NCBI GenBank assembly: GCA_964658305.1
Contig: OZ210884.1
Span: 6,014,001-6,078,000, forward strand
Source of the DNA: Leptogorgia sarmentosa
Taxonomy: Eukaryota
Length of the DNA stretch: 64,000 nt
Reading direction: 5' to 3'
In this document: positions 5,592-30,465 of the stretch, in pieces
Layout: the number at the start of each line of letters is the position of its first letter
Position numbering within the stretch: the stretch's first letter is position 1
Notes under the pieces: generated by a model
The model's input: only the letters and a program-made list of their open reading frames with translations
The model's database searches: none
What the model was told of the DNA's origin: nothing
Position numbers and translations under genes: made by a program

Positions 5592-5620
5592 TTTGAATTT
5601 ACTCCGTTTGAATTACTTTA

Positions 5621-5869
5621 TCCGGCTCGAAGGACCAACATGTGGCGTACAAACCACTTAACTGACTCAATTTATGCTGGTTCTCTGTGTAATTAACCTC
5701 TTGATGACTCGATTGCAAAGGATTGTATTATTTAATATCTCAATTTTCAAACATACAGAAAATATGAACCTTTCGCCTTCGTTTTACTTTTCGTACCGTT
5801 TCTTTGTCCAGCGGTCATTATTATTATTATTATTTGAAACTTAATGTTATATTACTTTGTTCGTTCACA
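5621..5869 (-). mobile_element. BEL/Pao 5' LTR (5641-5869) with a tRNA-Tyr-type primer binding site (5621-5637)
   Basis: LTR bounded by TGT...ACA; the minus strand reads TGGTCCTTCGAGCCGGA, complementary to the tRNA-Tyr 3' end; KS coding sequence resumes exactly at 5870. Confidence 0.85.
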
Positions 5870-8800
5870 TAGCAATTGTATGTGCACCAAATATTCTTCT
5901 TACGGGTAGAAAATTTCACCTGGCATGCTGCAGGGCAGGACTGTTGGCCCAAGACGGTCGTTGCAAGAGTTTTGATATAACAGGAGATGGATATGGTCGA
6001 GGCGAAGGTGTTGCTGCTGTATTGATTAAACCAACCCAAACAGCTCTGGATGACCGAGATGATATTTATGCGGAGGTTCTAGCTTGTGGTGTGAATAACG
6101 ATGGACAAACAGCAATTCCAATAACAGCTCCTAGCGAAGTTACACAAGCCGTCTTGTTCGAAAGAGTTCTTCGAGAATCTGGTTTGTCGAAGGATGAAAT
6201 ACAGTACGTTGAAGTGCATGGCACCGGTACAGCTATTGGTGACGTCGTTGAAATGGGATCATTGGCTGCAGTTTACGGGCATAGTAGCAGCCAAATACTT
6301 CGTGTTGGATCCGTGAAATCCAATGTAAACCACACCGAATCAACTGCAGGTTTAGCTGGCTTGATAAAAACGTGTCTTATGATAAAACATGCTCAATATG
6401 TTCCGACAATCAACGTCCATGAAGTTAAGCCTCAGCTTAAAATGACTGAGAGAAGAATGATGGTTCAAACTAGTAATGAGCCGTGGAATTGCAATGCTGG
6501 GACTGGCAGAGCAGCTGCCGTCTCATCCTACGGCTTTGGTGGTTCTAATGCTCACCTTATCGTCCGAGAAGTTACCAGGAAACCTGTTTCAGTATTTCCT
6601 ACTAGACCAATATCTAACAGAGTTATGACGTTGTCCGCTACTTCAAAAGATGCTTTAAAAGCCCTGGCCATGAAAGTATCGCAGTCTTTCAGGACGAAAC
6701 CAGATGATGTCGAACTTCTCAAGGACAACATTTGCTATTCCCTAAAAGAGAGATACACTCAACATCAATATCGTTTGGCTGCCAGTTTTTCTTCTTTTCA
6801 AGACGCAGCAAATGCTTTGGAAAAGTTCACTAATCTTGATGAAGGGTTTGAAGACGTGGTAGCTACTGGTCATGTAACTGAATCCCGTAATAAAGTCGTA
6901 TTTCTGTATGGTGGTCAAGGAGCTCAATGGTTTGGAATGGCAAAGGAATTGTTAGTTCATGAGCCAAAGTTCAAGGAAAGTATTGAAAAGATAGATGACC
7001 TCCTGAAACGGTACAAAGCCTCGTGGTCCTTACTAAATGAGCTTCAAAAGCCGGAAGAAACGTCCCGCCTAAACGAAAATCCCATCGGGCAGACGGCGTT
7101 GTTTGCTGTACATTTCGCCTTAACTGAATTACTGGAATCGTGGGGTGTCACACCATCAGCTGTTGTTGGCCATAGTCTTGGGGAAAGATCGGCTGCTTGG
7201 GCTTCTGGAGCATTGCGTTTACATAAAGCGTTGCAATTGGTTTTATTTCGATCTCAACTTCACGAGAAGTGTTCACCGACAGGTTGTATGGCTGCCATTG
7301 GTCTTTCAAAAGCTGATGCTGAAAAAATGTTGAAGGAACTTCAGGTAGAGAATGAAGTTGGTGTTACGGTGATGAATAGTCCAGGAAACATCGTCTTATC
7401 TGGTTCTAAAGCGTCAATGGAACTCGTTGAAAACCACGTGAAAAGTGCGCGAAGTGATGTTTTCTGGAAAAAACTTTCCACAATACGAGCCTATCATATA
7501 GCCAAGAGATGGAAGAAATCAAACCACCAGTGAATTCCGCGTACGTCAAACATCAAGTAATATACCATTTTACTCAAGAGTAACAGGCCCCTAGTTGTCT
7601 AGTCAGCTTCTCTCCTTGGAGCATTGGTGGCAAAATATCCGACAACCTGTTTTGTTTAAGCATGCCCTAAAAACCATGTTTGCTGATGGCTACCAATTTT
7701 TCATTGAAATCAACGCTGCCCCTCAACTTTCATACCATGTTCGCCAGACGTGGTTCCGCAGTCAAACAGCAAAGTCCTTGCGTACGAATGAGGTTTTTGT
7801 GATTCAAACTATTCCGAAACGCACAGCAAGTCATCAGCACTTGTCTTTTCTTCAAAACTGTGTTGCTCATCTCTATACCCATGGTGTGCCCATATCCTGG
7901 AACAAAGTGCAAGGTTTAGGTTCAAAAACATTCTTTCCACGTCCAACATACCTCTGGCAAGAAACAGAGTTTTGGTACCGTGATGAACGTCCTTTGGAAT
8001 TTGTTACGTTTTTGAATAAACCCAAAGCAGAAGGAAACGATCGGGTTGTCTCCTTCCATCCCCTTCTTGGAAATGCGGTACCAACGGAAACATTTGCTGG
8101 CATACGTGCGTGAGAGTCTGAAATAAATTTACATGATCTGCCATACTTGAACGATCACAAATTCTCTGGTTTTCCTGATCCTGTGATTCCAGCGGCCGTT
8201 TATGTGGAAATGGCATTGGCAATGTCATTAGATCTGTCTCCTAATTCAGCGCAAGATATACACAACATTGCCTTCAAGAATCTGCTGACTCTATCTAGTA
8301 TCGATTCACATATAATTAGAACACGTCTTTTACCAGAAGAATATCCTAGTAAAGAAAATATGTTTCAAATTACTATCGTTCAAGACTTTGGTGACGAAGT
8401 GATTCTTTCTGATGGTGGCATATATGTAGATGCTAGTTATGGCTATGCGAACCAAGGTATGACAAGGTTTTTAGCCCCTAGTTACACGATATCGGATTAC
8501 TATCGGAGCGGCTGTTTCAATGTGGATTTAGCTCTTTTGTGATAATATCCCGAGAGAAGACTGGAAAGTGTCCTAAATTGATGTCACTCCGATGCAAATC
8601 CGCGGCATGGTGTAACTGGGAACTAATAAATCAGATGTTGGACAGTCGTCCAGCGAATTAAAACTCTTGTTTCATCGACAACTTATTTAGTAAAAAACGT
8701 ACCCCCTGATGAAACAGATATGAAAAGCCGAATAAGATAAGAAAAAACGCGAAGAGTTGAGTTTTGCATTTGGTCCCCAATTTGATTTGATAACCGATAC

Positions 8801-9600
8801 ATGGTCAAACGACACAGAAGCACTATCTTGCATAGTCCCGACTGAAGAGATTGTTAGAAGCGTCATTTTATGTTTTCCACCGGACATTGATTGATGCGTG
8901 TTTCCAAACAATTCTTTTGCTCAGTAATCAAGCTGGTAAATTTGTTCCCAAGAAAGTGACTTGTGTCACCATGCTGCAAAATCTCTCGTGTATCGAACAG
9001 TTTTATGTCCACACCAAATTGGTGGAATCTGAGAAAACAATAACCTACAACATCACCCGTTGAACAAAGACCTCAACGGGTAGTACCCGATATTTCTCAA
9101 TTGAGAACATGGGTAATGCCCACGCTGGACTATCGTCTAAGTAGCCTTGCCTGGTAAATTATGAACAGTAATTGCCCGGGTCTATAATCATATGCATTTA
9201 GCCAGGCCAGAGTGGTGAGCAGCGAGCTGGAATTAGCTCAAGTGGTAAGGCACGCGGTGCGTGCGTTGCAGTTCTATAGTTCAAACCCCAGTTCGACACA
9301 TTTTTTCAGCGTTGGTGATGAAAACCTTTTTTTCCTCAATATTTTTCTCACCACAATGGTCAGGGTTAGGATTCTAGGGTTTGGGTTGGGATTAAGGAAA
9401 TTCTTAGTATATAGAAAAATGGTTTATATCTAACACTAATATAACTATATCAAGAGTAATACTGAAACGCCGACCAGCAAGCTTAGGCGATAGTCCAGCG
9501 TGGGCATTACCCGTGTTCTCAATTGAGAAATATTGGGTACTACCCGTTGAGGTCTTTGTTCAACGGCTGACAACATCACCCTGATCGATCGGTATTCGAG
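5870..9600 (+). pseudogene. Copy A of the Patched-PKS gene: KS C-half, AT and DH; disrupted
   Basis: Near-identical to copies B and D; EVHGTGT, GHSLGER, a frameshift near 7499, TGG>TGA at ~8111, a deletion at the next exon's acceptor (~8730), a MITE at 9054, and truncation near 9600. Confidence 0.9.
9054..9569. mobile_element. Non-autonomous TIR element (~85-bp TIRs, acaacat target duplication) with an internal tRNA-like segment
   Basis: ccgttgaacaaagacctcaacgggtagtaccc... is repeated inverted at the right end; acaacat at 9047-9053 and 9570-9576; the empty site is present in copy D (~49042). Confidence 0.88.
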
Positions 9601-10270: not shown

Positions 10271-11960
10271 TCACTGGATAAATGGAATTCCAAAGAGAGC
10301 TTCCAAGGCATCGATCAGTTTCTTAAGTTGTTCCCAATCTTCACATCTGAACGTGTAAAACTTGTCTTTGTTGCTCAACATACACACAAGGAAATCTATG
10401 TAAGATTTGTTCTCTTGACTCTTTCGGATTTCATTGACATGTCTACCAGGTACAACGTTGCTCAGCTCTTGAAGGTAGATTGAAAATAGGATAAAATTAG
10501 ATTAAATTCAAAATTAGCTTTTCGGAAGCCCCTATATATATATATAAGTCTTATATATAGCCCACTCCCTGTGGGATGTTGATGCTATTCTGGGAGATAC
10601 GATTGTGATCAGGTTTTTAAAATATGATGGAATGAAAGAATAATAGAGTCTCGAGGAATTGAGTGCCGTAAGATGCGTATTTTTCGTGACAAATAAACTC
10701 AACCGGCAACATTATATTTGTGAAAAAACAGTAGAACAGTGTGATGCATGAGCATGTTCATTTTCCTGGTAAAGGTAAATTTGTTAATGGTTACGCACCA
10801 AGATTGAGAGCTGGACGATGGTCGTCAAATTTATGAAAATAATTAATACGGTCATTTATCTAATTTTTTACGTTGATTTTCACAATAATAACACAACTTT
10901 GCCAATGAACATTTTTAAGTCAATGAGAATATTATTTCACTCTTAGGTTTATATATCAAAAAAGGAAAAGGCTCAATTTTGAGTTGCATTCATGAATATG
11001 TGCTACTCTCCAAATTCCAACGATTGAAAATTCAATCTAAGTATCGGTAAAAACAATCTGTTTGGGACTGTTTCTACGGACCAAACTTTTTCTATTGAAA
11101 ATCAATTCTAAGGGCGATTGAAAGGAAATCCGTCTAAAAGATTAACTTTTCAATCAAATTTTACTCGATTTTCGATTTAGCGAAAGAAGCTTATTTTTGG
11201 TCTGCTATTGCCGCACACGCGAAGTCTGAGCAACATGATTGGCTTAGAATTCTAAATCTTTGCAAAGGTTGAAATGATTCTCAGCCGTCTTTATCCACTG
11301 ACATACTTTCAATCGAATTGCACACTGAAACAGTATTTTTCAATCTAAGTTCAATCAATTAGACTAATCTATTTTTCAAACTGTTGAAAGATTGAAATTT
11401 TCAATTTTTTGAACTAAGAGAGTAGTGAAATTTGTACGATACTGATACGCTATCAAACAAAAAACTCTGCAGCACTTCCGAAAAGAGATCTTTAGAATCT
11501 CAAAGCTAGTGTTCTAAGAATGCATGAGCAAACATTCTCATTACGAATACAGTATATATGGATTTGTACGATTGATAGTTTGTGGGTGAAAAATTCAAAC
11601 TTGATTAAAGTGAAGAAATACCTTTCAGGAAAATCTTTCGCATCTTGGGGAATCCAAACGACTCATATGTAAAACAAAATACTGTTTCTTCAGAATCTAA
11701 CCACAAAATACCTTTCAACATTGCAGTGGAACCTAAATACAGAATTCAGAGCTAAATTCAAAGGTCTGAATATTTACTCAAACATCTGTTTTCAAACACC
11801 GTTTCATTATTTTATTTTGCAGTTTTGTAATCTATTTGTTTTATGTATAATATTATAATTGCATTTTTTTTCTCTCTTACTTGGACTTGACAACATTCTG
11901 ACGTGTAAGCCTTGCTTCAGGGACTCTACCAAGCGTTCTTGTGGCCTGGATCTCACAGTC
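10271..11960 (-). other. C-terminal PH-like domain of copy B (end of coding exon 10 plus exons 11-12)
   Basis: Spliced sequence LKQGLHVRMLSSPSSTAMLKGILWLDSEETVFCFTYESFGFPKMRKIFLKELSNVVPGRH...FLVCMLSNKDKFYTFRCEDWEQLKKLIDALEALF fits the beta-sandwich plus terminal helix pattern of PLC-type PH domains; conserved in copy F. Confidence 0.6.
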
Positions 11961-14900
11961 TGGAGGCTAAATGTAGAAAATGCTGATTGATACTTCATTG
12001 CTGCTGTTGTCATTATTATAGATCCACAAATCTTGCCACGAGTCTCGTCACGCATCTGCAAATGCCTTCCCGGGACGTAGAAAATATCCATTGTTTTCAC
12101 CAATGTTTTCCACATATGTATTCCCCACAGTGGTGATAAGTTAGTCTCATCGCAGCATAGAAATGTTATTGTGCCTTCGTAACATACCTGTTCAAAGATA
12201 CAATTACAAATAAACATGGCGAGCAAGTCAATCAAAAAATCCTTAGACCGGGAAAATCAGTTTGGAGAAGTATTTAGCCCTGAAGAGAGCCACATTACGA
12301 CATTTTTCAACCATATTTTCTAGTTTCACTACTTTTGCAAGGTTCTTTTAGGATTTCCGACTTGTCTCGATGAAAAATGAGTCTATAACGTTCATTGTAA
12401 ATTCTTACTAGCATGCAGTGTTTCAATTTTGGTGAACCACGTAAGTTAGTTTAAAAAGGTAATCGTCTTGGGAATAACTTGCTTTTCACTTGGTTAAGAT
12501 TAGGATTTGATATTTACATACATACTGGACAGCCAGAACCCTATGTTACCCCTAACCATAACCCACAACGTCCTGAAGGAGATAGGTTAATATCATGCTA
12601 AATGCAAATGAGTTGAAATCATGCTAAAATTGCAGGATTAAACACATCTATAAAAGCTAAAAACTTAGGGGACGACTTCCAGACCCCCAAACAGTTCACT
12701 TGTATGTACTTAATTCAGTAAGTTAGATGGGTTCAAGGCTGACTAACACCTGGTATAAAACGAGAAAGTATTTTACGTTCTCTATTTTATCATATAAAGA
12801 TAATAAAGAGCGAAAACCTGCTTGGTGTACGCATGTACTATAAACTTTCGTCCCCTTATTTTAGATTTCAAAATGCAAAAGTAAAGTAATTTAACATACC
12901 GTAGAAGGTTGCCATTCAGTATATGCCTTAGCAGCGGATCTAAGCTCATACAAAACACTGTCCACACCTTCTTGCAAAGAAAAGTCTATGTTCGTCTGCG
13001 CAGCTTGATTTTCCAAAGCACTTATAACTTTTTCTCTGTCTCCGAACTTATCGTACATATTATCCAACTCATTTCGTGTCGTACCGAGTGCAACAAAAGC
13101 CATTCTCCCGATATATCGCCTTGTCTGCAAAAAAAATCAGAACGACAAATTGTTTATAATTAGATAATTCTAATGATTCCGGAGGAGGGAAGGCTTGCAT
13201 ACATTAAAATCAGTATGCCCAAAAATTGGTTGCAATATATATGTGATTTGATCCGGGCTTTATTCATGATTCGAATAGTTATTTACCACATGGTTCTCCA
13301 GGGTCTGCATGTTCAGCTGTATGCATTTTGTGATGTATTCACTGCAGTTAGCCAAAGATTTAGCAAACCACGCGTACGCATCTACCATGGACACCATTGC
13401 GACTGCTTCATTTTTTCGCGTTAGTTCACTTGCCATTTCATACGCTACGAATCCACCGAAAGAATACCCCGCTACAATACGAAGTAATCAAAATTATGTC
13501 GGGAGGACTGAGAAATTATTGGAACGAATACGAAACATTTTTTCAAAGATGATCTCGAGATCAATACACATGTCTTCACCATTGATGGAAAATTCATTAT
13601 TAATGTATTTTCGGTATGCTACTGTCTACTATATATATGAAAGTTTTTTGTTTTGGTGTTCAACCCATTAGTTGTGGAAATTTTGTTGCAGATGTTTTGT
13701 TGCTAAAGACTGGTTGCATGCAAACTTTACTATAACATATGAAGAAAATATTTTGGCCTTACCAAGATAATATGGACCACGTGGCTGGATTTTCTGTATC
13801 AGATTTACATATCTTTGAGCGAGTGTCAAAACTGTACCATAATCACTTGTCACCAAAAAGGTATCATCCACCCCAATGCCATACAATGCAACCTTAGTCT
13901 GAAGCAAAATGCGACACAAACGCCTTTACATTTTGGAAATCACAAATGACACGAGGGCTAAGTTGTCTGTTCTTAGGCGAGAAGGCCTCACGTGAATGCG
14001 TCCGAATTATTTTAACGAATATATAATTACCTGTTGTTGAAAACCAAGTGCATATGTTCCCAATACCAGCGCTGACTTCTGGCTGCCATGAACCATAAAC
14101 ACTTTTACAACTGCGTCATCTGGAGCATAGAGGGGGATGACTTTTTCCTTGATCGATTCAATGCCTTGAAGCTCCAAACCATTGTCGTTTTTGGCATTTT
14201 CCACTTCTTTATTGGCATCAGAATTATTTTTGAATTGGTTATCATCTAGCGCAAAGGTTTCCCCTTCACTTTCTAACGTAGAACTTTCCCCTTGCTTTTC
14301 TGACAAGAGGCTACTCTCTTGCATATTATTTTCATTTTCATCGTCGGTATCATCTGTTGCAGTTGTGTTTTCAATTTGTTCAATGATGTCATTAATGATA
14401 GCCAAACCATTCGTCTTTGGTTGAATAAAGTAGTATGTCTATAAATGATGTTAACGTTTACGTGAGAACAATGTACCAATGGCTGTAATGCAATCCCAGT
14501 ACATTGTTTGTAATGCACTGCCATATGAATACCACATAAAAAAGGTATGTTAACCGTTAGCGCGGTGTGTTAGTAGGTACACAGGCGAGTGATTAGTTGT
14601 TTCAGATAACTATTCCGAACAAATTTAAAATACAATAAAAATAATTGTAATATTTGTACTTCAACAGTATCGTGAATTTAATGAATAGATGCTTTTGTCA
14701 TTTGGATCTGCTGCACATATAACTTTAAGAATTCTTTTTTGTTCTTGAGACACTTTTAAAGCAGGATTGAGGAAAGGGACCATATTTAAACATGCTTACT
14801 TCAAATGTAGCACCAATGTTATTCTGTATTTGAAGTTTCATATTCGTTGCGGCAATTGAATCAATTCCATATTTGTGCAATCCAACGTTTAAGTCGAGCT

Positions 14901-17900
14901 CAGCGGCATCAGCTCCTGACCACGAAGACAGCAAACGTTTGACAAACTCCTCAACATAATTCACTCTGAATTCGAGTGGCTGTAGGGCTAGCTCCTTCAA
15001 AGTCATGACTTTGTTATTCTCACCAGTGGACAACATCGTTTCTTCCCGGATAGGCTGCAGTCTTGGAGAAGTATGAGTTTGAAGATAAACTTGCCAATTT
15101 ATTGGAGCTAAGGAAACCTGAGGTTCGTTCGAATGCTCGAGGAGAACGCGAGTCAAAAATTCAATTCCTAAACAAAAAATGAACTAATAATTAATAATTG
15201 AAATAAAAGATGATCTCATATGCAGAAAAGGAAAATTCGGTAAAACAGAGATTCATTCCGTGAAAGACGTCATTAACCTCGTAATATATATATTCTCATT
15301 CTTGACTCGTAGTACAACGTAATGATAAAGCATGGAATAATAAATTACTTTAGCATATTTTTGGATATATTTTTGGTCCGGAGTAATAAAAAGTTAAAAA
15401 GCGACTATTTGTTTATTTGCCTCACATGCCTGTTGTAAAGTGTAGAGAATAGAACCCTCCTGATTCAAGTATTGACGTGATATCTGTGTTTCTTTCAAGC
15501 ACACCAGCACCACTAATTGGTCCCCAGTTGACAGAAAGTCCGGGCAGGCCAAGTTTGTGTAGACGATATTCACAAAGTTGGTCCATGAATGAGTTGGCTG
15601 CAGAGTAGGCGACTTGACCAGCATTGCCAAGAACACCAGATATTGAAGAAAACATAATGAAGAAATCCAAATCCATTGATAGACTGAGTTGATGTAGGAT
15701 AACACTACCTAAAAGGAAAATTTAAAGCAATGAATTTATGAGATAATCTGCAACAATTGTAATGTTAAAAAACTCATTATCTATTGTCCCAAGAGTGTAT
15801 GTAAAAAAGGCAGTGGGGCGTCAGTCCGTTACAGATTTATGAAACTCATGTTGAAATTTGTTCTAAGTCGCTATACGAAAACCACCAAACGTTTAGAATC
15901 ATTTTTTTCCTTTATATAATCATGGGGCTAATCATTTGTAGCCAGTCAGTGGCGTAGGAAGATCGATAATAGGGGGGGGGGGGGCTTATATTCATATATT
16001 GGTGTTCACAGACCATAAAAACAATGGATTTCAACAGAAACCAATGATGCAGCACACGAATATATGAATATCAGCTCCCCCCCTCATTATTTCAATATTC
16101 CTATACGCCACTGAATACATAGAAGTTATACAGAAAGGTTCTGCGTTTGGAATTGAAAATTCACCTTTTACTTTTGTCTGGACAACTTTTTTACATGTTT
16201 CTAAGTCGGCGTTGATGAGCAACTGATCTGCCAGAACCATAGCGGTGAAAACAATTCCAGCCACAGCAGGCAAGCTCTCAAGTTCATCCTTTATTACATT
16301 CATGTCTTTCCACGATGTAACATCTGCTTGTCTCAGTAGAATCTGGGATCCAGTCTCTTGCTCTAAGCGCTGAACCTCGACTTTCTTTTCCTCGCTGGGC
16401 GGTGATCGGGCTGTACATACCACTGTTTTGGCACCATTTTCAACCATCCATTTGGCAACTTCAAAACCAAAACCACGAACACCTCCAATGACAAGATACG
16501 TGCGATCATCTTTCAAACCGTTTGCATCGAGTGGTAAACTGTAGAAAGCCACTTTTTCGGGAGTATTGTCTGGTTTGAATGAAACTGTGGACAAACCGAT
16601 TTCTGCTTTTTCACTTTCTGATGGTTTGTTGTTGTATCCATTGTTCATGACGTCATATATACTCGATACTCTCAGAGGAATGTTCAGCAGTCTTTCCAGA
16701 AGACCTTTTGATTTCAAATGAAAATAACACGAACTGAACAATTTTTCGAAGTTCTCGGAGCCTTCTGTGATGTTTGGCAAGTTGGTCACAACACACCGGA
16801 TGTTTTTGCCCTGAGCAAACGGGTTAAAGTGGAGATTTTTATCTTCATGGAGAATAATTACGCTGCCGTCTGGTTTAAGATGATTAACTATTTGACGGTA
16901 GACATATTCACTGCAGTCGCTCAAGAGGCAAACAGCATCGAATTGCGCTAAATTGGCAGCATTTACTTCTGCTCTTGCTATTTCCTCCACAGTTACGACA
17001 AGTAGGTCATACATTTTCCTCAGTCGCTCTTTACTGGCCCGATCGTTAGTGAGACAGACGATTTTTACATCCAAAGACAATGCGACACATGCAAAAAGGG
17101 ATGATATTTCTTCTCTTTCATGATAGATGAGGACATTCTTTTCTGGCGCATCTTCAACGAGATTCGTGAGAATATAATAGGACATTTGCAAAGGAAAGCC
17201 AAGAACAACTGCCTGTTGAGGATTGGTGTTAGCTTCTAAATTTGTTATGGAAGATTTTTCTTCATCAACGTAACTTCCCAAGTCATCCGTTTTACAAACG
17301 CCGAGTACGAAACGATTTTCTGGTTCATTCTGACTGTCCAAAAACTTTCCTACAAAGGTGATGCGATCATTCTTTTTGAGGTCACACCAGGGTTTCTGGA
17401 GAACTGGGCAAGCGAAGTGGACGTCAATTTTCGTTCTTCCGTTTATTTGTTTTTTGGATGTTTTCTGCAGGAAAAGCTGGTCTGACATGCTTGTCACCTT
17501 AAAAGGCCTTTGTGCTCCTTCTTTTGTCAGAGGAGACTCTTCTTTCGTAATTATTTGTTTTTCACCCGAAGTCAACTTGTTGAATCGATTTACATATCGT
17601 AAGCCATCTCTATAGACAATTTCTTCTTCCATTGTCCCTTTTCGTACGTCTTCTTCCAAATATCGAAAATCATCGTCGCTGGGATTGTAAGGTAAATCCA
17701 CCACAGAAGCGTTAATTGCTGTGATTTCCTCCGAGAAAGTTCTCCTGAATCCAAGCACAGAAGCAGACCATGGAAAAGCATCTAAATTATCCGTGTTGGG
17801 ATAGCGGTTGGGTTGAGGAATGGTAACAACTCCTGAGGTGACAAAGATTAGTTGGATATTTTCTGCCTCTCTTTTCGCAATTTCTTGCGAAATTAAAAGA

Positions 17901-20900
17901 CAACTTTCAAATGCAAGGGCATGAGTTGCATCAAAGTTTTGGGCTCCAATATCAAAGGTGCTGCCATCTACTGGCCAGAAATTCATCACCAGTAACTTTT
18001 CTTCGTTTTCAATTCTTGCCAGGGCAACATCGAGTGCTTCAGAAAATGTTTCACGTGTGTTTCTTGACGAATCTTCTCTATCAACAAAAATCACATTCTC
18101 ATGAGCAGCAATACACTGTGAGAAACGTTCAGCATACTTGCTTTGATCCCTGAGAATCAGCCAAAATATATCATCCTGACCCGATGTTGCAATTTCAGAC
18201 GTTAATTGTTGCCAACCAAAAGAAAACGATGTGTTCTCAAAGAACGTTCTGGTCTTCTCTGATGAGATATCCTCCATTCGGAGTTCTTTTATGATGACTA
18301 CTGGTCTAGCATAACGGTCCATCAGGGTAATATTGTAGCTTGATGTTTTCTGTGATTTTATCATCTTTGTGTGAGCGTAAAACTTTTCCGTGGCTATAGG
18401 CTTTTGCAGGAGAGTGACTTGTGCAATCTTCTGTGGCACAGATGAACCAGCCGAATCGTCAAGCAAGATAATTGTTTGGAAACATGCATCGATCAACGAG
18501 GGATGAATAAAATAAGCTGATGCTTCTTTGGTCATCTCTTCAGTTGGGCATATCTGAGCGAGAGCTTCTGTGTCATTGGACCAACCTTCGGTTATCAAAT
18601 TAAACTGGGGACCGAAATCGAAAATAGATTCTTCGCGTTTCTCTCCTACATGCTTTTCTGACCATTTACTCATTGCAGATTTTAAAATTTCAAAATGCTC
18701 TTCATTTTCTTCTTGGATTGCTTCTACACAAAAATTCAAACAAACGTAAAATCGAGTTTGTCTTTCGTTTTGATGCAATGACATATTAATAATAAATAAT
18801 CTGCAGAAACACCAGCTCTAAAATTTTAACCTTATGTTTGATTTGATTTTTATATATGGGGGTTTTTAACTATCTTTTTCATTCTTGTTATTACATAATA
18901 TTATTATATGCCAAGTATTCGTTTTGGCGAATGGCGCGATCTGATTGGCTGGTATTGCCCACGGGCAATACGCAATTTTCATTTCCCTGTCAGGAAAACA
19001 ATCACAAAATTTAAGATTTGACGAAATTTTATTTGTTAAATTAGACTGAAAAGTGTTAAAATGAGAGACCAGGAGCATTCTGGAAGCGAGTTTTATTAGG
19101 CTATCCAGAGGCTGAAAATAAAGGATACGTAACTGTTTTTTGTCAGTTATCGTTTTTATCGAAGAACATTATGAGAATTTGGTATATTCGTGCATGTTGT
19201 CTGAGCTCAATTCGAAACGCACATACAGAAAATCTTAGTCTTAATAATTACCCCACCACAAATTGTGAATGAGCTACAGCTTTTCTTGCATTTTTGATTG
19301 TTCGATATTGGTTAGCCAAAGAGTAATTATTTGCGATGATCACTTTTTGGAAATAGTGGAAATATAATAATTTCGAACAGCTAATTTCTATTCTTACAAG
19401 GTGGGTCAAAACTTGTCATTGACCCTTACGTATGTTGTGTTTTAATAACACGGTCTAAAACAACAAATGATAATAGAAACTAGCATGAGACCTGTCTTGA
19501 AACAATTTGTGTTGCCATACCTTGCTTTCCATAGCGATGACTATTATTCAAGTTTACACAGCCTTCGGAGAGGATCACTTCCTGTCCATTGTCTTGAACA
19601 ATGGTAATTTGAAACATTTTCTCTTCACCAGGGTATTCTGCCGGCAAAAGACGTGTTCTAATTTTGTGGGACTCGTTACTAGATAGAGTTAACACATTGG
19701 TAAAGGCGATATTGTGCGCATTTGGAGCAGTGTTAGGAAATAAATCCAATAACATTGCCAATATTATCTCCACGTATACAGCTGCAGGAACCACAGGATC
19801 AGGAATTGTGGTAATTTTGTGATCATGTATGTATAAATGATCGTTCAAATTGATTTCACCCTCCCAAGCACGTATACCAGAGGACGTTTCGGTCGGAACA
19901 GTTTTTCCAAGAAGAGGATGAAAAGGGACAATACGCTCATTTTCTTCTAACCCAGATTCATTCAAAAACGTGACAAATTGAGACGGCTGCTCATCACGGT
20001 ACCAAAACTCTGTTTCTTGCCATGGGTATGTTGGACGTGGGAAGAATGTTTTTGTTCCCAAACTTTGCACTTTGTTCCAGGATATGGGCACACCATGGGC
20101 ATAGAGATGAGCAACACAGTTTTGAAGAAAAGACAAGTGCTGATGACTTGCTGTGCGTTTCGGAATAGTTTGAATCACAAAAACCTCATTCGTACGCAAG
20201 GACTTTGCTGTTTGACTGCGGAACCACGTCTGGCGAACATGGTATGAAAGTTGAGGGGCAGCGTTGATTTCAATGAAAAAATGGTAGCCATCAGCAAACA
20301 TGGTTTTTAAGGCATTCTCAAACAGAACAGGTTGTCGGATATTTTGCCACCAATGGTCCAAGGAGAGAAGCTGACCAGACAACTGGGTGCCTGTTACTGT
20401 TGAGTAAAATGGTATATTACTTGGTGTTTGCCGTACGCGGAATTCACTGGTGGTTTTGTCGAACGATTCTTTGATTTCTTCCATCTCTTGGCTATGATAG
20501 GCTCGTATTGTGGAAAGTTTTTTCCAGAAAACATCACTTCGCGCACTTTTCACGTGGTTTTCAACGAGTTCCATTGACGCTTTAGAACCAGATAAGACGA
20601 TGTTTCCTGGACTATTCATCACTGCAATATCAACTTCATTCTCTACCTGAAGTTCTTTCAACATTTTTTCAGCATCTGCTTTTGAAAGACCAATGGCAGC
20701 CATACAACCTGTCGGTGAACACTTCTCGTGAAGTTGCGATCGAAATAAAACCAATTGCAACGCTTTATGTAAACGCAATGCTCCAGAAGCCCAAGCAGCC
20801 GATATTTCTCCAAGACTATGGCCAACAACAGCTGATGGTGTGACACCCCACGATTCCAGTAATTCAGTTAAGGCGAAATGTACAGCAAACAACGCCGTCT

Positions 20901-23900
20901 GCCCGATAGGATTTTCGTTTAGGCGGGACGTTTCTTCCGGCTTTTGAAGCTCATTTAGTAAGGACCACGAAGCTTTGTACCGTTTCAGGAGGTCATCAAT
21001 CTTTTCAATACTTTCCTTGAACTTTGGCTCATGAACTAACAATTCCTTTGCCATTCCAAACCATTGAGCTCCTTGACCACCATACAAAAAGACGACTTTA
21101 TTACGGGATGCAGTTACGTGACCAGTAGTTACTGAGTCTTCAAACCCTTCATCCTGACTACTAAAGTTTTCCAAAGCATTTGCTGCCTCTCCAAAAGAAG
21201 AAAAACTGAAAGCTAAACGATATTGATGTTGAGTGTATCTCTCATTCAGGGAATAGCAAATGTTGTCCTTGAGAAGTTCGTCATCATCTGGTTTCGTCCT
21301 GAAAGACTGCGATACTTTCATGGCCAGGGCTTTTAAAGCATCTTTTGAAGTAGCGGACAATGTCATAACTCTGTTAGATATTGGTCTAGTAGGAAATACT
21401 GAAACAGGTTTCCTGGTAACTTCTCGGACGATAAGGTGAGCATTAGAACCACCAAAGCCGTAGGATGAGACGGCAGCTGCTCTGCCAGTCCCAGCATTGC
21501 AATTCCACGGCTCATTACTAGTTTGAACCATCATTCTTCTCTCAGTCATTTTAAGCTGAGGCTTAACTTCATGGACGTTGATTGTCGGAACATATTGAGC
21601 ATGTTTTATCATAAGACACGTTTTTATCAAGCCAGCTAAACCTGCAGTTGATTCGGTGTGGTTTACATTGGATTTCACGGATCCAACACGAAGTATTCGG
21701 CTGCTACTATGCCCGTAAACTGCAGCCAATGATCCCATTTCAACGACGTCACCAATAGCTGTACCGGTGCCATGCGCTTCAACGTACTGTATTTCATCCT
21801 TCGACAAACCAGATTCTCGAAGAACTCTTTCGAACAAGACGGCTTGTGTAACTTCGCTAGGAGCTGTTATTGGAATTGCTGTTTGTCCATCGTTATTCAC
21901 ACCACAAGCTAAAACCTCCGCATAAATATCATCTCGGTCATCCAGAGCTGTTTGGGTTGGTTTAATCAATACAGCAGCAACACCTTCGCCTCGACCATAT
22001 CCATCCCCTGTTATATCAAAACTCTTGCAACGACCATCTTGGGCCAACAGTCCTGCCCTACAAGAGGCCATATGAAATGCTTCACCTGTGAGCAGAATAT
22101 TTGGTGCGCATACAATTGCCACGTCACATTCACCGGTTTGTAGGTGTCCAAAGGCAACGTCGAAAGCCACCAAGGATGACGAACATGCTGTATCCAATGT
22201 TAAACTGGGACCAGTTAGATTAAATGAGAAAGAAATCCGGTTGGCAACAACAGACATGGCACATCCAGTTGGAGAAAATTGATCGATTGTTCGAATGTTA
22301 GACGGATGCAAAACAAGTGAACCATATTCTAAGTTCATTAATCCAACATAAACGCCCGTTCGACAAGTTTGCAAATCTTCAAGGCGCATTCCTGCATCTT
22401 CGATTGCTTCGTAAACAACTTGAAGAAGTAACCTTTGTTGTGGATCCATTGAGCGTGATTCGGCGGGGGTTATTCCAAAAAACTGATTATCAAATCCAAG
22501 AATATTTTCTAGAAATGCTCCAGTGTAGACATAGTGTTTTCCAGGCGTTTTCGTTCCTGAGTTGAAAGAATCCAGAAATTTATTTGAGTCTGGTCTATTT
22601 TTGGGATAAGACCCAATACCACATCGTCCTTCCACCAGCATATTCCAAAATTCATCTTTGGAGTTCGTCCCTCCTGGAAAGCGACAACCAATGCCAACTA
22701 TAGCAGCAGGAATGGGAGTTTTAGATTTCACGACATCCTTTGATAAATTTGCGTGGGCATTATCGTAGAATTTTCGCTTTCTTACACGTTCAAACCACTT
22801 GATTATGAATGAATCGAAGTTCACTTTTCGAAAGTCGAACAGTTTTCCCAGAAGTGTCAGGTACACGGGTAGTATCACTAAGCCATGCAGCAGACCAAGA
22901 ACCACAATGCCAACAAACATCTTGAAGAATGTTACAAACACAGTAGAGGAAGCAAATCCTGTAGGCATCATTCCAAGGAAAGTACTCAGACCCCCGAGAA
23001 AAACACTGCCCCCAATTTTGCCAAGTGAGTCAATAACACGATTCTCTGCAGAGGTCTCCTTCGACGAAACAAAATGATAGGCCACATGTGCGTTGTAATC
23101 CACGGAAAATCCTAGAGCCATAACAAGATTTATCATAGAAATTGAGTTAAGAGAGACATTCCATATGTACATTAGTCCAAGAAGTTCAAGAATAAGAGCT
23201 AAAAACCCCCACAAAAGACAAATTATTATCATAAAATGATTCAGGAACAGGGATGATATCAGAAGAATTGAGATTCCAGCAACGACCAAATTCCTCACAG
23301 TTTCATTAAGGACATTAGCAAATTGTTCAAAGTAGATGAAAGGTAGGGTAATGGCAAATGCATTGACATCCGTGGCACGTGAGAGATCCTGTCTTATGCT
23401 CAGCATCATATCTCTTTGAAAACTTGAAGCAGGGTTACTCTTGGAGAACAACAACATTCTTGAAGCTGTCAAATGCGTTTTGTTTTTTGAAAATTTCAAA
23501 TCTTCGGCAAACCTTATATATTGTGGCAAAGAAATAAAATGTGGCAAGGTATTGTAGAAAGTAGTGGTTTCATTTATGTCAATATTCTGTTTGTTTGCCC
23601 ATGACCTGTATTCTGACATCCAAGAAATACTTTCGGAAAGAAAATGCGCATTACGTTCAGCGATATTTTGAACTTCTGAATACATTTTTTGAATGTCTTG
23701 ACTGGATTGGCTCGCCTGTCCGGGGAAGATAACATCAACTGGAATAGTGAGATGAAATTTTTCTTCAAAAACGTTCAGGTATTCCCGGTAGTGTGATTTT
23801 TCAGTTGTTAGTAACTGTCTGCTAAAACTTTCATCAATATTGAGAGCGCCATAAATACCACCAGACAATAGCAGCAAAGAACCCAGACAGACGATAATTT

Positions 23901-26900
23901 TTCCTTTTGGAGATGTTATTATCTTGCCCCATGATCTCATCACGTTGTCAAATCCATGCGTTTTGAAACCAATACAGCAGCTCCTAGGCGGTCCGACCAT
24001 TACACAAGGTGCCATATCTCGACGACGCGCGTTAATTCGTTTGATATCAAACCACATGCATCCAACAAAAAATGTCATCAGCATAAGAAATGCTGTCCAA
24101 ATCGTCAGCGCTGCGTATGTGCAAAAATAACGAATCGCGGGAAAGATAGAACGACAGCTAACAGCAAATGCTACCAGGTCAGTGAGGGTTGTCATGGTAA
24201 TAGTTGGACCACTTCTAGCCATTGTACCGCTAAGCATATACCTAGCTGGAAGATTTTGACGGACTAATTCGTTCAGTTCATGTAGAATAATAAACACGTC
24301 ATCAATGCCAATACTGACGACTAAAAATGGCAAAACCCCAACCATACTGACGAAAGGAACATCGAAAAACAGCAAGAAGCCAAGCGCCGAGGTGACACCC
24401 AAATAGATAGATAACAAAGCAGTAAATCCTAAAAGTTGATGTCCATAGCGAGAATCTGCACATCTACCGTTTATTATTCCACTAAAAATTCCCATGATTG
24501 TGAAAGTCAGCGAAAAGAACTTGATATCAGAACCAGTACTTTCTGCCACTGAATCATCCAGGCTTCGTTCTGCTGCATAAAAAATGTTTACACAAGTTGT
24601 GTTTTGTGCAAAAGATGAAACAGCGTTCAAATATTCCATCTCCCAGTCCAAAACATGCTTTCTGTTTTCGTCCTCTCTTCTGTATTCTCTCATATAGTAA
24701 ACAATTCTCAAGGCATCTGCAGAATCAAGTTTACCATTCGAAGCAGCTTTTCCAAATATTGCATTGTAGTTATCTTGAAGTCGTCTTCCATTCGTCATTA
24801 GAAAAACATCGTTGTCAAGCAATTGCTTGATGTGTTGTTTAATATTGTTCAAGTTATTTATATGGTAACCGAAAATTTCTAACAAATTTACGGAGGCACA
24901 AGGGATAGTTGGATGTGGTTTATAACAATATTTCTCGTAAAACTTTATTTTTGTGATTATGTTGTGTAAATCAATCATTTCGGACAAACATTCCTCGGAA
25001 AGAACAGACTTGTTTTGTTTTGGTAAAAAAATAATCTCCTCTTGTCGCACTTCAAGTTCAAATCCCAAATCTCGTGCCTTGCGTATATCCTGCGATGCTT
25101 CGCTGTTTTCTGGCAGGAACAAGTATTTTACATTTTCTTCGGGCTCTAACTTCACAAATCCACAGGTAAAGACAATGGCAACAAACAGGCATGTGAATAT
25201 GATATGAAATGGCCGCCGCGAAATAAAGAGGGCGGTTTTTTCAAAAAGCTTTTCAAGGAAGACAATAAAGAGTTTTTGACACCATACCCAGTGCCGAAGA
25301 CACCCATTTTCAAACCAAGATTGTGGTTCCTGCCGGTATAAGTATTCGACTTCATTGTAGACATTTGGTTTGTTGCTAACAAGTAAAAAATAAAAAAAAG
25401 ATGAGGAAAGCTAGCTTGGAAGAAAGCCCGTATCCATTCATGATCATCGGTGTAAAAATCCCTGGATAAACCAAGGAGACATTGTTGGGCAACCGAACAA
25501 AATTTGCTGCCGGGATGACCTAAAAGTATTTGCACTGGAGGTTTCAGGACAGGGGGCATATTTAAAAACAAACATCTCGAAAAAATGGTGTGGCGTCTTG
25601 TAAGCAATATTTTAGATCATCCGTACACACGAATGGTTTCCACAGCATGTTTCCCAGATTGCCTGTTAGGAACGTTAAAACGTCCTTTGTGAATCCCTTA
25701 AATAAATTATGTTCGTAGACTATTTTGATTTTGTTCAAATGCTATTCCTACAATACATTTCTCGCCCAGACTTGTTGCGATTCAACCTTGGCTGAAACAT
25801 GTCACTAACTTTACATATTCCACAGTACGTTTCGTTATACAATTACGTTTTATATGCATCATACGTTTCACAATTACGTTTTATTTGGTAATTTGGTTAT
25901 TTGGTTTACCAAATCTATAAAGTGACATATATTATTTGTTTAAAGCTGTACCTAGGGATCTTGAACAAAAGCCTCGTGTTTTCTAGAAGGTTCCTATTAT
26001 TATAATAATAATAATAATGGGAACTTTATTAATAAATTTTTTTAGTATACATATAAAATTGTAAATCTCACTTATGTCAGGTAATTTACAATCCGCTACT
26101 TGAATCGATTATTGAACTGCGATATTGTATGGTGGACGTACAACAACATAGCAAGTGAGAAAACAGTGTGATAGCGTAGAAATTATTTAAAAATTATTCC
26201 TACAGAAATTCCCCCTTTGTCTATTTATTTCTTGGTGCGGCAGGTATTCTCTTCTTGGACATAACAACGCAATAGTAGTTCCGGGAAGTTGGAGCCTACG
26301 AGACGCAACCATGGTTGGCGGCGACTGAAAATTTTTTTAGAATTTGTGGTTTCTAGATCATCGGAAATTGCCTTTTTGGGGTCTTTTATTCCTCTTTTCT
26401 TTGGTTTTGCCCTCATCATTTGCTTGAGGGGTGTATTAGATATTTACGGTTAAACATTTGCAAAATTAGTCTACTTTCCTGGAGACACATTCTTGTGGCG
26501 ATTTTCCTTAATTTTAATCTTGGTTCCGTGTTAATTAACCTTAAATTGTTACGTGGTCTCAGTTGGTCGCTACGTCCCTGGTTAAACCAGGCTGATCGGC
26601 ACGAAATTGACCAAGAACTGCAATGTGCAGCTAACGATGAAATTTTAACTGTTTATGTATGAAGAAAGATACTCAGTATATTCATTTCAGTAATCTTATA
26701 AGACTTTTTATATGCTATAAATACGATGATCGTATGCAGTTTTAAAGATTTCGAGAATGTATTTCTGCGCCAAAAGCTAGAATTGTAACATTTGTGTTGA
26801 TTTTAAGATTATCTTGTGGAATTCACTTTTATTTACATTATTGTCTAGACAAGGGTTGTTTTTTTGCAACAGGATCCGCGCATATCACTACATCTGGTAC

Positions 26901-27841
26901 AGAAAGCAACATATAGCCCTTAATTGGCCCCAGAAGGTTGGAGCAGCTAAAAGTTTAAACCGCGGGGTAGCATGGGTGTACTTAATTTTTGAGGTTATAT
27001 TAATGAGAATATAAATTTTTATGTCATTGAAGTGATTGAGAATTATCCTTGGCCGAATCGGAACTATCAATTGTCATATGCAATTATATATTTTAGAAGT
27101 TAAATAAGCCTGCAAGTAGAAGTCAGTCAACATTCTTAAAGTTTCAGTTTTGAATTATCATATTCTTGTAACGTGCATTTATATAGACCATAATCTTTCT
27201 TCAGTAAAACTCTCAATGTTTCTCGGTGTCACACAAAATTTTCCCTCTCTCTGTTCCCCCAAGGGGCGACATTGCAAGGCAGGGGCCGCGGAAGCACCTC
27301 GAAAGAGGGGGCCACAATCAAAAAAGGGCACGGATGAAAAAGGGCGCTTTCCTTTCAAAAAAGGGCACATTTACCCTTTGTCCAAAATTGGGGGGGGGTT
27401 CACTTGCCCCAATGCCGTAAAACACTGACATTAATGATTAATTACAATATCATAGCACACACTATATGACGCAAAAGGCCCTGGCTATATTACACAAAAA
27501 GGGCACAAATCTAATTGAAAAAAGGGCACAAATCTAATTGAAAAAAGGGCACATTTTCTCGTTTTCAAAAAGTGGGGGGGCACCGTGCCCCAGTGCCCCT
27601 CCCCCTGTTCCGCGGGCCTTGTTGTTAGGAATTTCGAAGCCCTAAACTAACACCTTAACCCAGACAATTTCCTGTAATAAGCAAGAGATTAAACTGAGGA
27701 GAATAATATCGTTAGGAACATCCCCCCACGCCAGCGGCCAGGACGGATTTGTTAGAACACTGGAGTCAAGCAAAACTAAATGTTCAATGACCAGACTGAC
27801 CTGTTTTGGAATCCATCACTATTATTCTCAAATTTTGCCAT
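10271..27841 (-). CDS. Copy B (apparently intact): Patched/RND(SSD)-KS-AT-DH-KRs-ER0-KR-ACP-TE-PH fusion, 3,556 aa. Coding exons (minus): 27841-27801, 25375-19521, 18723-16165, 15708-15430, 15167-14800, 14438-14031, 13898-13763, 13471-13287, 13124-12900, 12187-11881, 11732-11622, 10467-10271
   Basis: All 11 introns have GT(one GC)-AG ends and compatible phases; exon lengths sum to 10,671 nt (3,557 codons including TGA). Motifs: SIGIDD, GFSVDYNAH, DTACSSS, EAHGTGT, KSNVNH, GHSLG, AYHS, HPLLG, DACFQ, GGVRGFG, YSAAN, GIDS, GYSFG, PGRH. Confidence 0.88.
11003..11427. mobile_element. Intronic MITE
   Basis: ctactctc...gattgaaaattcaatc at the left end mirrored by gattgaaattttcaat...gagagtag at the right end. 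Confidence 0.6.
15947..16113. mobile_element. Intronic hAT-like MITE
   Basis: TIR cagtggcgtagg / cctatacgccactg; related to the element at 40044-40199. Confidence 0.75.
19521..22720 (-). other. KS-AT-DH(N-half) domains of copy B, in the same exon as the Patched domain
   Basis: AIVGIGCRFPGG, MDPQQRLLL, DTACSSS (Cys codon 22183-22185), EAHGTGT, SSYGFGGSNAH, YGGQGAQW, GHSLGE, HPLLG, DHKITTIPDPVVP. Confidence 0.96.
22850..25375 (-). other. Patched/PTCHD3-like RND domain of copy B (TM1, luminal loop, sterol-sensing domain TM2-6, TM7, second loop, TM8-12)
   Basis: FISRRPFHIIFTCLFVAIVFTCGF..E....LFLPENSEA N-terminus; PFLVVSIGIDDVFII; GPTITMTTLTDLVAF; NSISMINLVMALGFSVDYNAHVAY; FFKMFVGIVVLGLLHGLVILPVYL. 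Confidence 0.95.
27280..27621. mobile_element. hAT-like MITE in the first coding intron of copy B
   Basis: TIR caggggccgcggaa / ttccgcgggccttg; imperfect 8-bp TSD ttgcaagg/ttgttagg; absent from the paralogous site (~42785). Confidence 0.8.
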
Positions 27842-29555: not shown

Positions 29556-30170
29556 TAAGACTTTCTCCAGGGGCGACTAACGTAAAAAAAGGCATGGGGA
29601 AAAAATTCGGAGCATGGTTTCGAAATTATTTTCCAATTGATTGAAACTCTTCTCAAATTACAATTACGCATTCAAAATCCATCACACTCCAGCGGTCAAC
29701 TTCGATCAGTTTTTGCACATTGAGCCAGCGATTGACAGTCAACCGATTAGTCAAATAAACGGTATTCGAATGAAAATTGACTAATCTGCGTTTTAGATCA
29801 TGCAATTTAATTGGTCCAAATTGCTCTAGCCACACATTGCAGGCGTGTTGATTGTTCAAAAAGATTTTGACTAACGATTGCAAAATTTTGACTAAAGCAG
29901 GGAATTTTTTTACTATATTATTCTGCAGTTAGATGGAGGGTTGTGATTGGATTATTTTGGCGCAAAGTAAAGTAAAGAACGTCTCCTCTGATTGGCTTGG
30001 GTGAACTTTCAGAAATATAGTAACCAAATTCTTGGTCAATTGATGCTCTATTTGTACTTCTGCTTCACGCAGACCTTCTGCAGACACCCCAGATAATATA
30101 TAAGGAAAATAAAAGACAGGATTTTGTAGGCCACAAAATTAGTACGTACAAATTTATATTAGTACGTACT

Positions 30171-30465
30171 AGAATACTATTCGACAGTGGCAGTCAGCGG
30201 ACATATATATCAGAAAAGGTTCGGAATAGGCTGAAGTTGAAGGCAATAAGATCAGAGAGGATGATAATTAACACCTTTGGTCAGAGTGAGGCTAGTGAAG
30301 TGCAAAGGTTGGATGTAGTTCTATTGAAAATTAGGAGTAAAAATGACAATGTATTAATGTGTATTGAAGCGTTATGTGTTCCCACTATATGTAGCTCAGT
30401 AACAAATCAAAATCTATCTAGTGTATAAGGATTGTCTGAGTTCCGAGGGTTGCAACTCGCAAACT
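30171..30465 (+). pseudogene. BEL/Pao aspartic protease (DUF1758-like) relic
   Basis: RILFDSGSQRTYISEKVRNRLKL...INTFG...ALCVPTICS, followed by a stop. Confidence 0.8.

What the first reader, a model, noticed from the sequence alone, without database searches (positions are those of the whole stretch)
10271..27841. Membrane-anchored 'exporter-synthase': a Patched/RND transporter fused to a complete type I PKS in an animal gene
Seen: one reading frame encodes a ~12-TM Patched/PTCHD3-like RND domain with SSD motifs (SIGIDD, GFSVDYNAH), followed by KS-AT-DH-KR-ACP-TE, all with catalytic residues (Cys-His-His, GHSLG, His/Asp, Lys/Tyr, GIDS, GYSFG..D..H). The hand-spliced model has 12 exons and 3,556 aa. 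Established: eukaryotic RND proteins (Patched, NPC1, Dispatched) move sterols or lipidated cargo; mycobacterial MmpL RND exporters are encoded beside, and export products of, type I PKSs; animal FAS/PKS enzymes are soluble. Inference: a single polypeptide makes a lipid or polyketide at the cytosolic membrane face and exports it. I do not know of a characterised enzyme with this architecture.
Basis: partly seen in the sequence, partly recalled or inferred. Interest (0 to 1): 0.95.

Follow-up and report, generated by a model that had tools for sequence, protein, structure and literature searches.

The report
Coral transporter-fused polyketide synthase
This soft-coral-type gene joins a complete Patched-like membrane transporter to a polyketide synthase in one reading frame, a fusion also present in jellyfish and noted once in print but never studied, and it likely makes an unsaturated lipid at the membrane and would export it itself.

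Summary
The minus-strand gene rebuilds to 12 exons and 3,556 aa with no internal stop. The RND, KS, AT and the DH N-half lie in one intron-free exon, so the fusion does not depend on splicing. The RND part has 12 transmembrane segments and folds confidently (pLDDT 92). All catalytic residues are present. All 37 long relatives found are also RND+KS, in octocorals and the jellyfish Sanderia; Rhopilema has it too. Both halves show dN/dS well below 1. The architecture is not new. A 2026 preprint states in one sentence that most cnidarian PKSs carry a patched domain, and a 2015 table lists coral 'other-KS-AT-DH-KR-TE' proteins. I found no functional study in ten searches. Synthesis coupled to export is inferred (about 50%); the product and its role are untested. 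Verdict: a real, intact member of a barely noticed, uncharacterised cnidarian family. Interest 0.62.

The parts
27801..27841 (-). Coding exon 1 (start codon, 13 codons + 2 nt), inferred
   Evidence: donor and phase; 97% copy before a paralogue at 42543-42613
19521..25375 (-). Exon 2 (5,855 nt): whole RND, linker, KS, AT and DH N-half in one intron-free frame
22858..25203 (-). PTCHD3-like RND domain: 12 TM segments (aa 72-853), two luminal loops, TM4 SIGIDD, TM10 GFSVDY
22705..22857 (-). Basic cytosolic linker from TM12 to KS, 50 aa here, 47-52 aa in 37 of 37 relatives
21574..22704 (-). Ketosynthase (Cys1078, His1215, His1253)
20206..21093 (-). Acyltransferase (GHSLG, RAYHS)
19621..19920 (-). 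Dehydratase N-half (His1866)
16165..18723 (-). Exon 3: DH C-half (Asp2044), structural pseudo-KR, degenerate enoylreductase relic (about 18200-16550), start of KR
15430..15708 (-). Exon 4: KR catalytic part (Tyr2853); followed by a GC-AG intron
14800..15167 (-). Exon 5: ACP (GIDS, Ser3015)
   Evidence: joined to exon 6 in an X4 contig
14031..14438 (-). Exon 6: ACP end, acidic linker, TE start
13763..13898 (-). Exon 7: thioesterase
13287..13471 (-). Exon 8: thioesterase GYSFG (Ser3219), Asp3246
12900..13124 (-). Exon 9: thioesterase lid region
11881..12187 (-). Exon 10: TE His3394 and start of the C-terminal tail
11622..11732 (-). Exon 11: C-terminal PH-like tail
   Evidence: aligns to the Sanderia tail; lead
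10271..10467 (-). Exon 12: end of the PH-like tail and stop

Best explanation
One polypeptide joins a 12-pass PTCHD3-like RND domain to a single-module polyketide synthase, and it likely works as a membrane-bound synthase-exporter that builds an unsaturated (polyene-type) fatty acid on the cytosolic face and is predicted to pass it out through its own RND domain. Shown: the fusion, the 12 segments, the catalytic residues, the loss of the ER nucleotide-binding motif, and conservation in octocorals and jellyfish. From established PKS and RND biochemistry: an even number of passes and a basic post-TM12 linker put the PKS in the cytosol; one module with AT, KR, DH and TE works iteratively; without ER each cycle leaves a double bond; the TE releases a free acid. 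Inferred: malonyl-CoA is the extender (the motif reading is recalled); the released amphiphile enters the inner leaflet next to the RND and is moved outward by ion-coupled transport using the TM4/TM10 acids; the PH-like tail may target a membrane domain. Most likely role (about 40% of this explanation): a secreted lipid or pigment of the mineralising matrix (sclerites, skeleton, statoliths). Next most likely: a surface or mucus defence lipid.
For: The fusion lies within one exon. All 37 long relatives found with the RND as query also carry a KS; 34 of 37 have both Pfam sets on record and the other 3 are N-terminally cut. The full RND-KS-AT-DH-KR-ACP-TE order occurs in the jellyfish Sanderia protein P0035, and RND+KS in Rhopilema. 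TM4 keeps both aspartates in 29 of the 34 relatives that include it, and TM10 keeps an acid in 37 of 37. In C. elegans PTC-3 the TM4 aspartate is essential, and only 7 of 26 PTC/PTR proteins keep both motifs (PMC3078328, passages), so retention is not automatic. The TM12-KS linker is 47-52 aa in 37 of 37 and has more K/R than D/E in 36 of 37. dN/dS against window paralogues is 0.27 over 733 RND codons and 0.15-0.25 for KS. No ER Pfam match at E<=5 in P0035 or P0058. An ER profile finds a relic in P0035 (E 2e-6) with the glycine motif replaced; the octocoral relatives score at noise level and the window's model not at all. The KS is closer to microbial PKS (CurL, 314 bits) than to animal FAS (257 bits). 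Precedents: medaka OlPKS (KS-AT-DH-KR-ACP) sits at the apical membrane and its lipophilic product is secreted and nucleates otoliths, and sea urchin PKS-2 is needed for spicules (PMC4604110, passages and sections 19-20); a bird PKS makes polyenes (PMC10764717 and PMC11739604, passages).
Against: No transport, product, localisation or tissue data exist here. Patched-family domains can act as sterol sensors or scaffolds, and DAF-6 works without the motif. The TM4 motif has Ser where canonical RNDs have Gly in 17 of 18 fused sequences, which may mark a changed function. Five of 34 relatives have lost one or both TM4 aspartates. The same RND subfamily exists unfused in Nematostella (909 aa) and Hydractinia (869 aa), so its native cargo may be a host sterol unrelated to the PKS product. 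An ER acting in trans, or a DH or KR that skips cycles, would change the product. Against the mineral role: jellyfish and some Palythoa carry the gene, it is absent from P. cf. toxica, and the many recombining copies here look like chemical diversification. No contig shown bridges TM12 to KS in a spliced run.
Confidence: 0.5

Rival explanations
1. The RND domain is an anchor and sterol or lipid sensor. It places the PKS on a membrane and tunes its activity or turnover, as sterol-sensing domains do in HMG-CoA reductase and SCAP (recalled). The product leaves by another route.
For: The domain carries a sterol-sensing domain and matches SCAP and HMGCR weakly. Some relatives have lost the TM4 acids (5 of 34). 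TM4 has a family-wide Gly-to-Ser change. Some PTR proteins do not need permease activity.
Against: An anchor does not need 12 passes and two folded luminal domains. The acids are kept in most relatives and in both jellyfish. The best structural-database matches are the transporters NPC1 and NPC1L1 (E 1e-53 to 1e-43), far above SCAP (E 1e-6).
Confidence: 0.22
2. The RND moves a different lipid, such as a sterol or a dietary starter or acceptor, to or from the PKS. The TE then transfers the chain onto that acceptor, so the coupling is supply or conjugation rather than export.
For: NPC1 and PTCH1 move sterols (established; search listing). Unfused members of the same subfamily exist in species reported to lack a PKS (Nematostella), so the ancestral cargo was not a polyketide.
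Against: There is no direct evidence. The TE has an ordinary hydrolase triad.
Confidence: 0.15
3. It is a synthase-exporter, but of a saturated or only partly unsaturated lipid or of a short signalling molecule, because an ER works in trans or the DH and KR are programmed.
For: The DH is the least conserved catalytic domain (26% identity to Sanderia over 133 aa; 48-57% to octocorals). Iterative animal PKSs vary their reduction (PMC10764717, passage).
Against: The ER motif is lost in both the octocoral and the jellyfish lineage. The DH His and Asp are kept.
Confidence: 0.1
4. The fusion is an assembly or annotation artefact, or this is a pseudogene.
For: The window holds several broken, rearranged copies. 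The transcript junction across TM12-KS was not seen directly.
Against: There is one stop-free ORF. The same fusion occurs in 37 of 37 long relatives from separate assemblies. dN/dS is well below 1. A contig is spliced at the modelled intron 5. The architecture is reported independently.
Confidence: 0.03

Closest known systems
'Cnidarian PKS' clade with a patched domain (bioRxiv 10.64898/2026.04.08.717340; Acropora 'other-KS-AT-DH-KR-(ACP)-TE' in PMC4604110 Table 2)
   Same: Same domain set: patched + KS, AT, DH, KR, TE. Cnidarian host. Duplication and pseudogenisation of copies.
   Different: Those papers give no function and do not discuss the transporter, the ER relic, the linker or the tail in the text I read. 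Whether the Acropora 'other' domain is Patched is my inference. The preprint's Fig. S15 and tree could not be seen.
Medaka OlPKS and sea urchin PKS-2 (biomineralisation PKSs, PMC4604110)
   Same: Single-module animal type I PKS. OlPKS has no listed ER, sits apically, and its lipophilic product is secreted.
   Different: No fused transporter in their listed domains. OlPKS lacks a TE. Their product is also unidentified.
Budgerigar MuPKS (psittacofulvin polyene synthase; PMC11739604, PMC10764717 passages)
   Same: Iterative animal PKS that makes polyenes from malonyl units.
   Different: No RND domain. That its ER is inactive is recalled; the Cooke 2017 paper was not held.
PTCHD3/PTR, Patched-1 and NPC1 (eukaryotic RND sterol and lipid transporters)
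   Same: 1+5+1+5 topology, SSD, two luminal domains, TM4 and TM10 acids; about 25-30% identity to general PTCHD3-like proteins; NPC1 E 1e-53.
   Different: Stand-alone proteins without an enzyme. TM4 has Gly at the first motif position in 34 of 38 unfused sequences, against Ser in 17 of 18 fused ones.
Mycobacterial MmpL exporters encoded beside PKS genes (recalled, not checked here)
   Same: The same logic: an RND exporter coupled to polyketide lipid synthesis.
   Different: Separate polypeptides in bacteria. The coral RND groups with eukaryotic PTCHD3-like proteins, and its bacterial RND match is weak (AcrB E about 1e-4), so the pairing is convergent.

Membership tests
Cnidarian patched-domain PKS | Patched domain plus KS, AT, DH, KR and TE in one protein | tested here: met
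   definition
Cnidarian patched-domain PKS | KS falls in the preprint's 'cnidarian PKS' clade | not testable with these tools
The KS is 50-55% identical to jellyfish and other distant fused KSs, against about 40% for bacterial PKSs.
Cnidarian patched-domain PKS | Cnidarian host | tested here: met
   The closest named relatives are Paramuricea clavata and Dendronephthya gigantea (KS 83% and 77%). The host is inferred from homology.
Eukaryotic RND (PTCHD3/Patched/NPC1) | 12 TM segments in a 1+5+1+5 pattern with two large luminal loops | tested here: met
Eukaryotic RND (PTCHD3/Patched/NPC1) | Sterol-sensing domain | tested here: met
   PF12349 E 7.8e-31, PF02460 E 1.5e-26
Eukaryotic RND (PTCHD3/Patched/NPC1) | GxxxD(D) in TM4 and GxxxD/E in TM10 | tested here: inconclusive
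   TM10 is canonical. TM4 keeps DD but starts with Ser. NPC1 also lacks Gly there.
Eukaryotic RND (PTCHD3/Patched/NPC1) | Ion-coupled transport of a lipid | not testable with these tools
   needs an assay
Iterative type I PKS, partly reducing | Single module with intact KS, AT, DH, KR and ACP sites | tested here: met
Animal FAS | Active enoylreductase | tested here: not met
Animal FAS | KS nearest to animal FAS | tested here: not met
   microbial PKS 314 bits against FAS 257 bits
AFPK (animal FAS-like PKS) | FAS-like KS, reported only in molluscs and arthropods | tested here: not met
   range from a PMC10764717 passage. AFPK-Finder was not run.
Biomineralisation PKS (OlPKS / PKS-2 type) | Expressed in mineralising cells and required for nucleation | not testable with these tools
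   no tissue or knockdown data

The most novel reading that the evidence does not exclude
Cnidarians evolved a one-chain synthase-exporter before octocorals and jellyfish split: a PTCHD3-type RND transporter welded to an ER-less PKS that channels a polyene fatty acid out of the cell. It is the source of the conjugated polyenes of octocoral skeletons and of a mineral-nucleating lipid for sclerites, coral skeleton and statoliths. It would give the first defined small-molecule cargo made in cis for an orphan PTCHD transporter.
Probability: 0.3. Interest if true: 0.9.

Novelty: new member of a known kind. Interest (0 to 1): 0.62.

Why it matters
The architecture is in print as a one-line remark only; I found no study of it. 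If synthesis and export are coupled, this is an animal counterpart, in a single chain, of the bacterial PKS plus RND exporter pairing. It makes three open questions testable with one construct: what cnidarian PKSs make, how a secreted animal polyketide leaves the cell (the otolith PKS product is still unidentified per PMC4604110), and what orphan PTCHD3-like transporters carry. It is also a candidate source for octocoral conjugated polyene colours (known to me only from a reference title in PMC4930200, and from recall), and a possible chassis for membrane-coupled polyketide secretion.

Tried and rejected
No RNA holder was listed. Spliced-read support is limited to what one search showed for 4 of the 6 listed runs: one exact joint (intron 5) and two contig ends at acceptors. 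The other introns, the first exon and an RNA bridge across TM12-KS remain untested. No whole genome is held, so copy number and synteny beyond the window are open, and the organisms behind the unnamed relatives (P0003-P0038 except those named) are unknown. Two homologue searches meant to retrieve named stony-coral or non-cnidarian fusions were swamped by modular bacterial PKSs. In one search, 21 of the 120 listed were already-known fusions and the other 99 show no Patched Pfam. In one search, none of the 120 listed shows one, and even the query's own family was pushed off the list. So absence outside Cnidaria is not shown. RND trees place fused proteins, exon-cut ORFs and the unfused Nematostella and Hydractinia proteins in one clade (support 1.0 and 99.8), but fused-only monophyly is weak (0.88 in FastTree, absent in IQ-TREE fast). 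The support values printed may be shifted by rerooting and are not used. The C-terminal tail gave no Pfam hit and no PDB sequence hit at E<=10; only the Atlas suggests PH (0.90, 137 of 256 features shared). No fold comparison of the RND model was obtained, so the family call rests on sequence. No complex prediction was run. Three look-ups in earlier scan notes returned nothing. Literature searches. Only and led to a mention of the architecture; none showed a functional study. Most subscription journals are not searched. PMC10764717 has 0 occurrences of 'patched', as do PMC11413580 and bioRxiv 2022.03.23.485437. A bacterial contaminant was rejected: the gene has spliceosomal introns, retroelement neighbours and a eukaryote-type RND.
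Full report
Observation. The feature is a spliced gene on the minus strand. A six-frame scan shows a 1,976-codon stop-free frame at 25410-19483 and a 928-codon frame at 18817-16034. Pfam places Patched SSD, sterol-sensing, KS, AT and DH_N in the first frame, DH and KR in the second, and the rest of the KR and the ACP in the next small frames. Intron 4 has a GC donor. The RND-to-KS junction lies inside exon 2, so it does not depend on any splice choice. All catalytic positions are occupied. Contigs of four public runs cover 28 to 30 of 30 bins. One X4 contig joins exon 5 to exon 6 exactly at the modelled sites, and two X5 contigs stop matching at the exon 3 and exon 12 acceptors, as spliced RNA would. 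Those runs are not on record as RNA, and no listed contig from them bridges TM12 to KS.

What the membrane part is. Hydropathy averaged over an 81-row alignment gives 12 segments in a 1+5+1+5 arrangement. AlphaFold2 builds the domain with mean pLDDT 92.2 and pTM 0.88. The best solved relatives by sequence are NPC1 (E 1e-53), NPC1L1 and Patched-1; AcrB is marginal. Named unfused relatives are 'patched domain-containing protein 3' of Nematostella, Hydractinia and Patella. Trees put the fused RNDs, several exon-cut ORFs and the unfused Nematostella and Hydractinia proteins in one strongly supported subfamily (1.0 and 99.8), but do not resolve whether the fused ones alone form a clade (0.88 or absent). 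A shared character favours one origin: the first position of the TM4 motif is Ser in 17 of 18 fused sequences (Thr in the other), while it is Gly in 34 of 38 unfused and in 8 of 9 exon-cut sequences; the ninth clusters with the fused Rhopilema protein. The TM4 aspartate pair is kept in 29 of the 34 long relatives that include TM4, and the TM10 acid in 37 of 37. These acids mark ion-coupled activity in RND permeases and are essential in C. elegans PTC-3, though not in DAF-6 (PMC3078328, passages).

What the enzyme part is. It is a single module, KS-AT-DH-pseudoKR-pseudoER-KR-ACP-TE. The KS scores higher against microbial PKSs (CurL, 314 bits) than against animal FAS (257 bits). The region where an enoylreductase belongs gives no ER Pfam hit at E<=5 in two full or near-full relatives. 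A profile built from 17 bacterial ER windows finds a relic in the jellyfish protein (E 2e-6) whose glycine-rich nucleotide motif is replaced, near-noise hits at the same place in two octocoral proteins, and nothing in the window's model. The ER was therefore probably lost before these lineages split. By standard PKS logic each cycle leaves a double bond. The AT motif RAYHS and the KR motif VLADQ resemble malonyl-selective and B-type signatures (recalled, not tested). After the TE histidine come about 120 residues that align with the jellyfish tail. The jellyfish tail's nearest Atlas clusters are PH domains (top score 0.90, ten of the ten best family hits in one clan), which is a lead only; Pfam and PDB sequence searches were blank.

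Distribution. Searching with the RND part among proteins of 1,519-4,335 aa returned 37 hits, and all 37 also carry a KS. Named ones are the octocorals Dendronephthya gigantea and Paramuricea clavata and the scyphozoan Sanderia malayensis, whose 3,629-aa model has the whole architecture. Rhopilema esculentum models also run from RND into KS. The window's host is therefore inferred to be an octocoral. The linker between TM12 and KS is 47-52 residues in 37 of 37 relatives and mostly basic, which fits a cytosolic KS held close to the membrane. Against paralogous pieces in the window, dN/dS is 0.27 over 733 RND codons and 0.15-0.25 for KS. Across all 15 segment comparisons it ranges from 0.06 to 0.87, with dS from 0.05 to 1.3, which suggests mosaic recombination among copies. 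Whether the fusion exists outside Cnidaria was not settled, because searches were filled by bacterial modular PKSs.

What is known. BioRxiv 10.64898/2026.04.08.717340 (passages and section 12 read) says that most cnidarian PKS proteins contain a patched domain besides KS, AT, DH, KR and TE, and reports patchy presence and a pseudogene copy in Palythoa. It offers no function in that text. Its Fig. S15 and supplements, which I could not see, bear on which species were already covered. PMC4604110 (passages, sections 19 and 20, and Table 2 rows) lists three Acropora proteins with an unnamed N-terminal 'other' domain, finds no PKS in Nematostella or Hydra, and shows that medaka and sea urchin PKSs are needed to start mineralisation, the medaka one through a secreted lipophilic product made at the apical surface. 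PMC10764717 (passages) analysed KS domains only and never mentions patched. PMC11739604 (passages) covers polyene synthesis by the parrot PKS. Octocoral polyene colours and calcium-sulfate statoliths are known to me from reference titles and from recall. Ten searches showed no functional study of the fused enzyme.

Mechanism. The best reading (0.5) is a synthase-exporter. The cytosolic PKS iterates malonyl condensation, ketoreduction and dehydration, the TE frees a polyene-type acid at the membrane, and the RND moves it outward. The fusion, topology, active sites and ER loss are shown or follow from established biochemistry; the cargo, the direction and the biological role are inferred. The rivals are anchor or sensor only (0.22), supply or conjugation of a sterol-like partner (0.15), a non-polyene product (0.10) and artefact (0.03). 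For the role I favour a lipid of the mineralising matrix, because of the medaka and urchin precedents and the reported absence from Nematostella and Hydra. The presence in jellyfish and Palythoa and the many recombining copies in this window keep a surface or defence role close behind.

Verdict. The thing is a new, intact member of a cnidarian family whose architecture has been remarked on but, in what I could search, never studied. Interest 0.62; the novel case has probability 0.3 and interest 0.9.

Noticed in passing
window 42543-56317: A rearranged paralogue. Exon 1 (42543) and exon 2 to aa 1377 are on +, with frameshifts near 46550 and 46880. Then come a piece of exon 3 (48652-49773, +), an inverted aa 740-1804 block (53002-49781, -), the rest of exon 3 (52950-54569, +), and exons 10-12 (54836-56317, +), with most of exons 4-9 missing. 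It is a real rearrangement or a misassembled tandem array.
   Followed up: partly
window 5869-9057 (+): An inverted partial copy (KS C-half, AT, DH) with frameshifts and stops, facing the intact gene. Its DH part is far more diverged (dS about 1.2) than its KS/AT part (about 0.07), a mosaic.
   Followed up: partly
window 32966-33894 (-): A short copy in which the RND N-terminus (aa 16-230) is joined directly to the linker and KS start (aa 871-958): an internal deletion of most of the transporter.
   Followed up: partly
window 1-3567 (+), 4251-5612 (-), 30024-30425 (+): Retroelement genes beside the cluster: an RT-RNaseH-integrase frame, a DUF1759 gag-like frame and a DUF1758 protease-like fragment. 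They are possible drivers of the duplications.
   Followed up: no
window 15429-15168: Intron 4 needs a GC donor to keep the frame; not checked against spliced reads.
   Followed up: partly
window 61408-63291 (+): A 628-codon acidic, low-complexity frame with no Pfam match, probably an exon of an unrelated host gene.
   Followed up: no
P0494 (Nematostella XP_001632695.3), P0357 (Hydractinia XP_057293421.1): Unfused RNDs of the same subfamily with both acidic motifs intact. They are natural controls for the ancestral cargo.
   Followed up: partly
P0031, P0038, P0012, P0014, P0023: Fused relatives that have lost one or both TM4 aspartates. They are possibly transport-dead paralogues.
   Followed up: no
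window about 11000-11400, 15950-16100, 18900-19200, 27280-27620: High-copy repeats inside introns 11, 3, 2 and 1, with depth up to about two orders of magnitude above the exons in runs X1 and X2.
   Followed up: no
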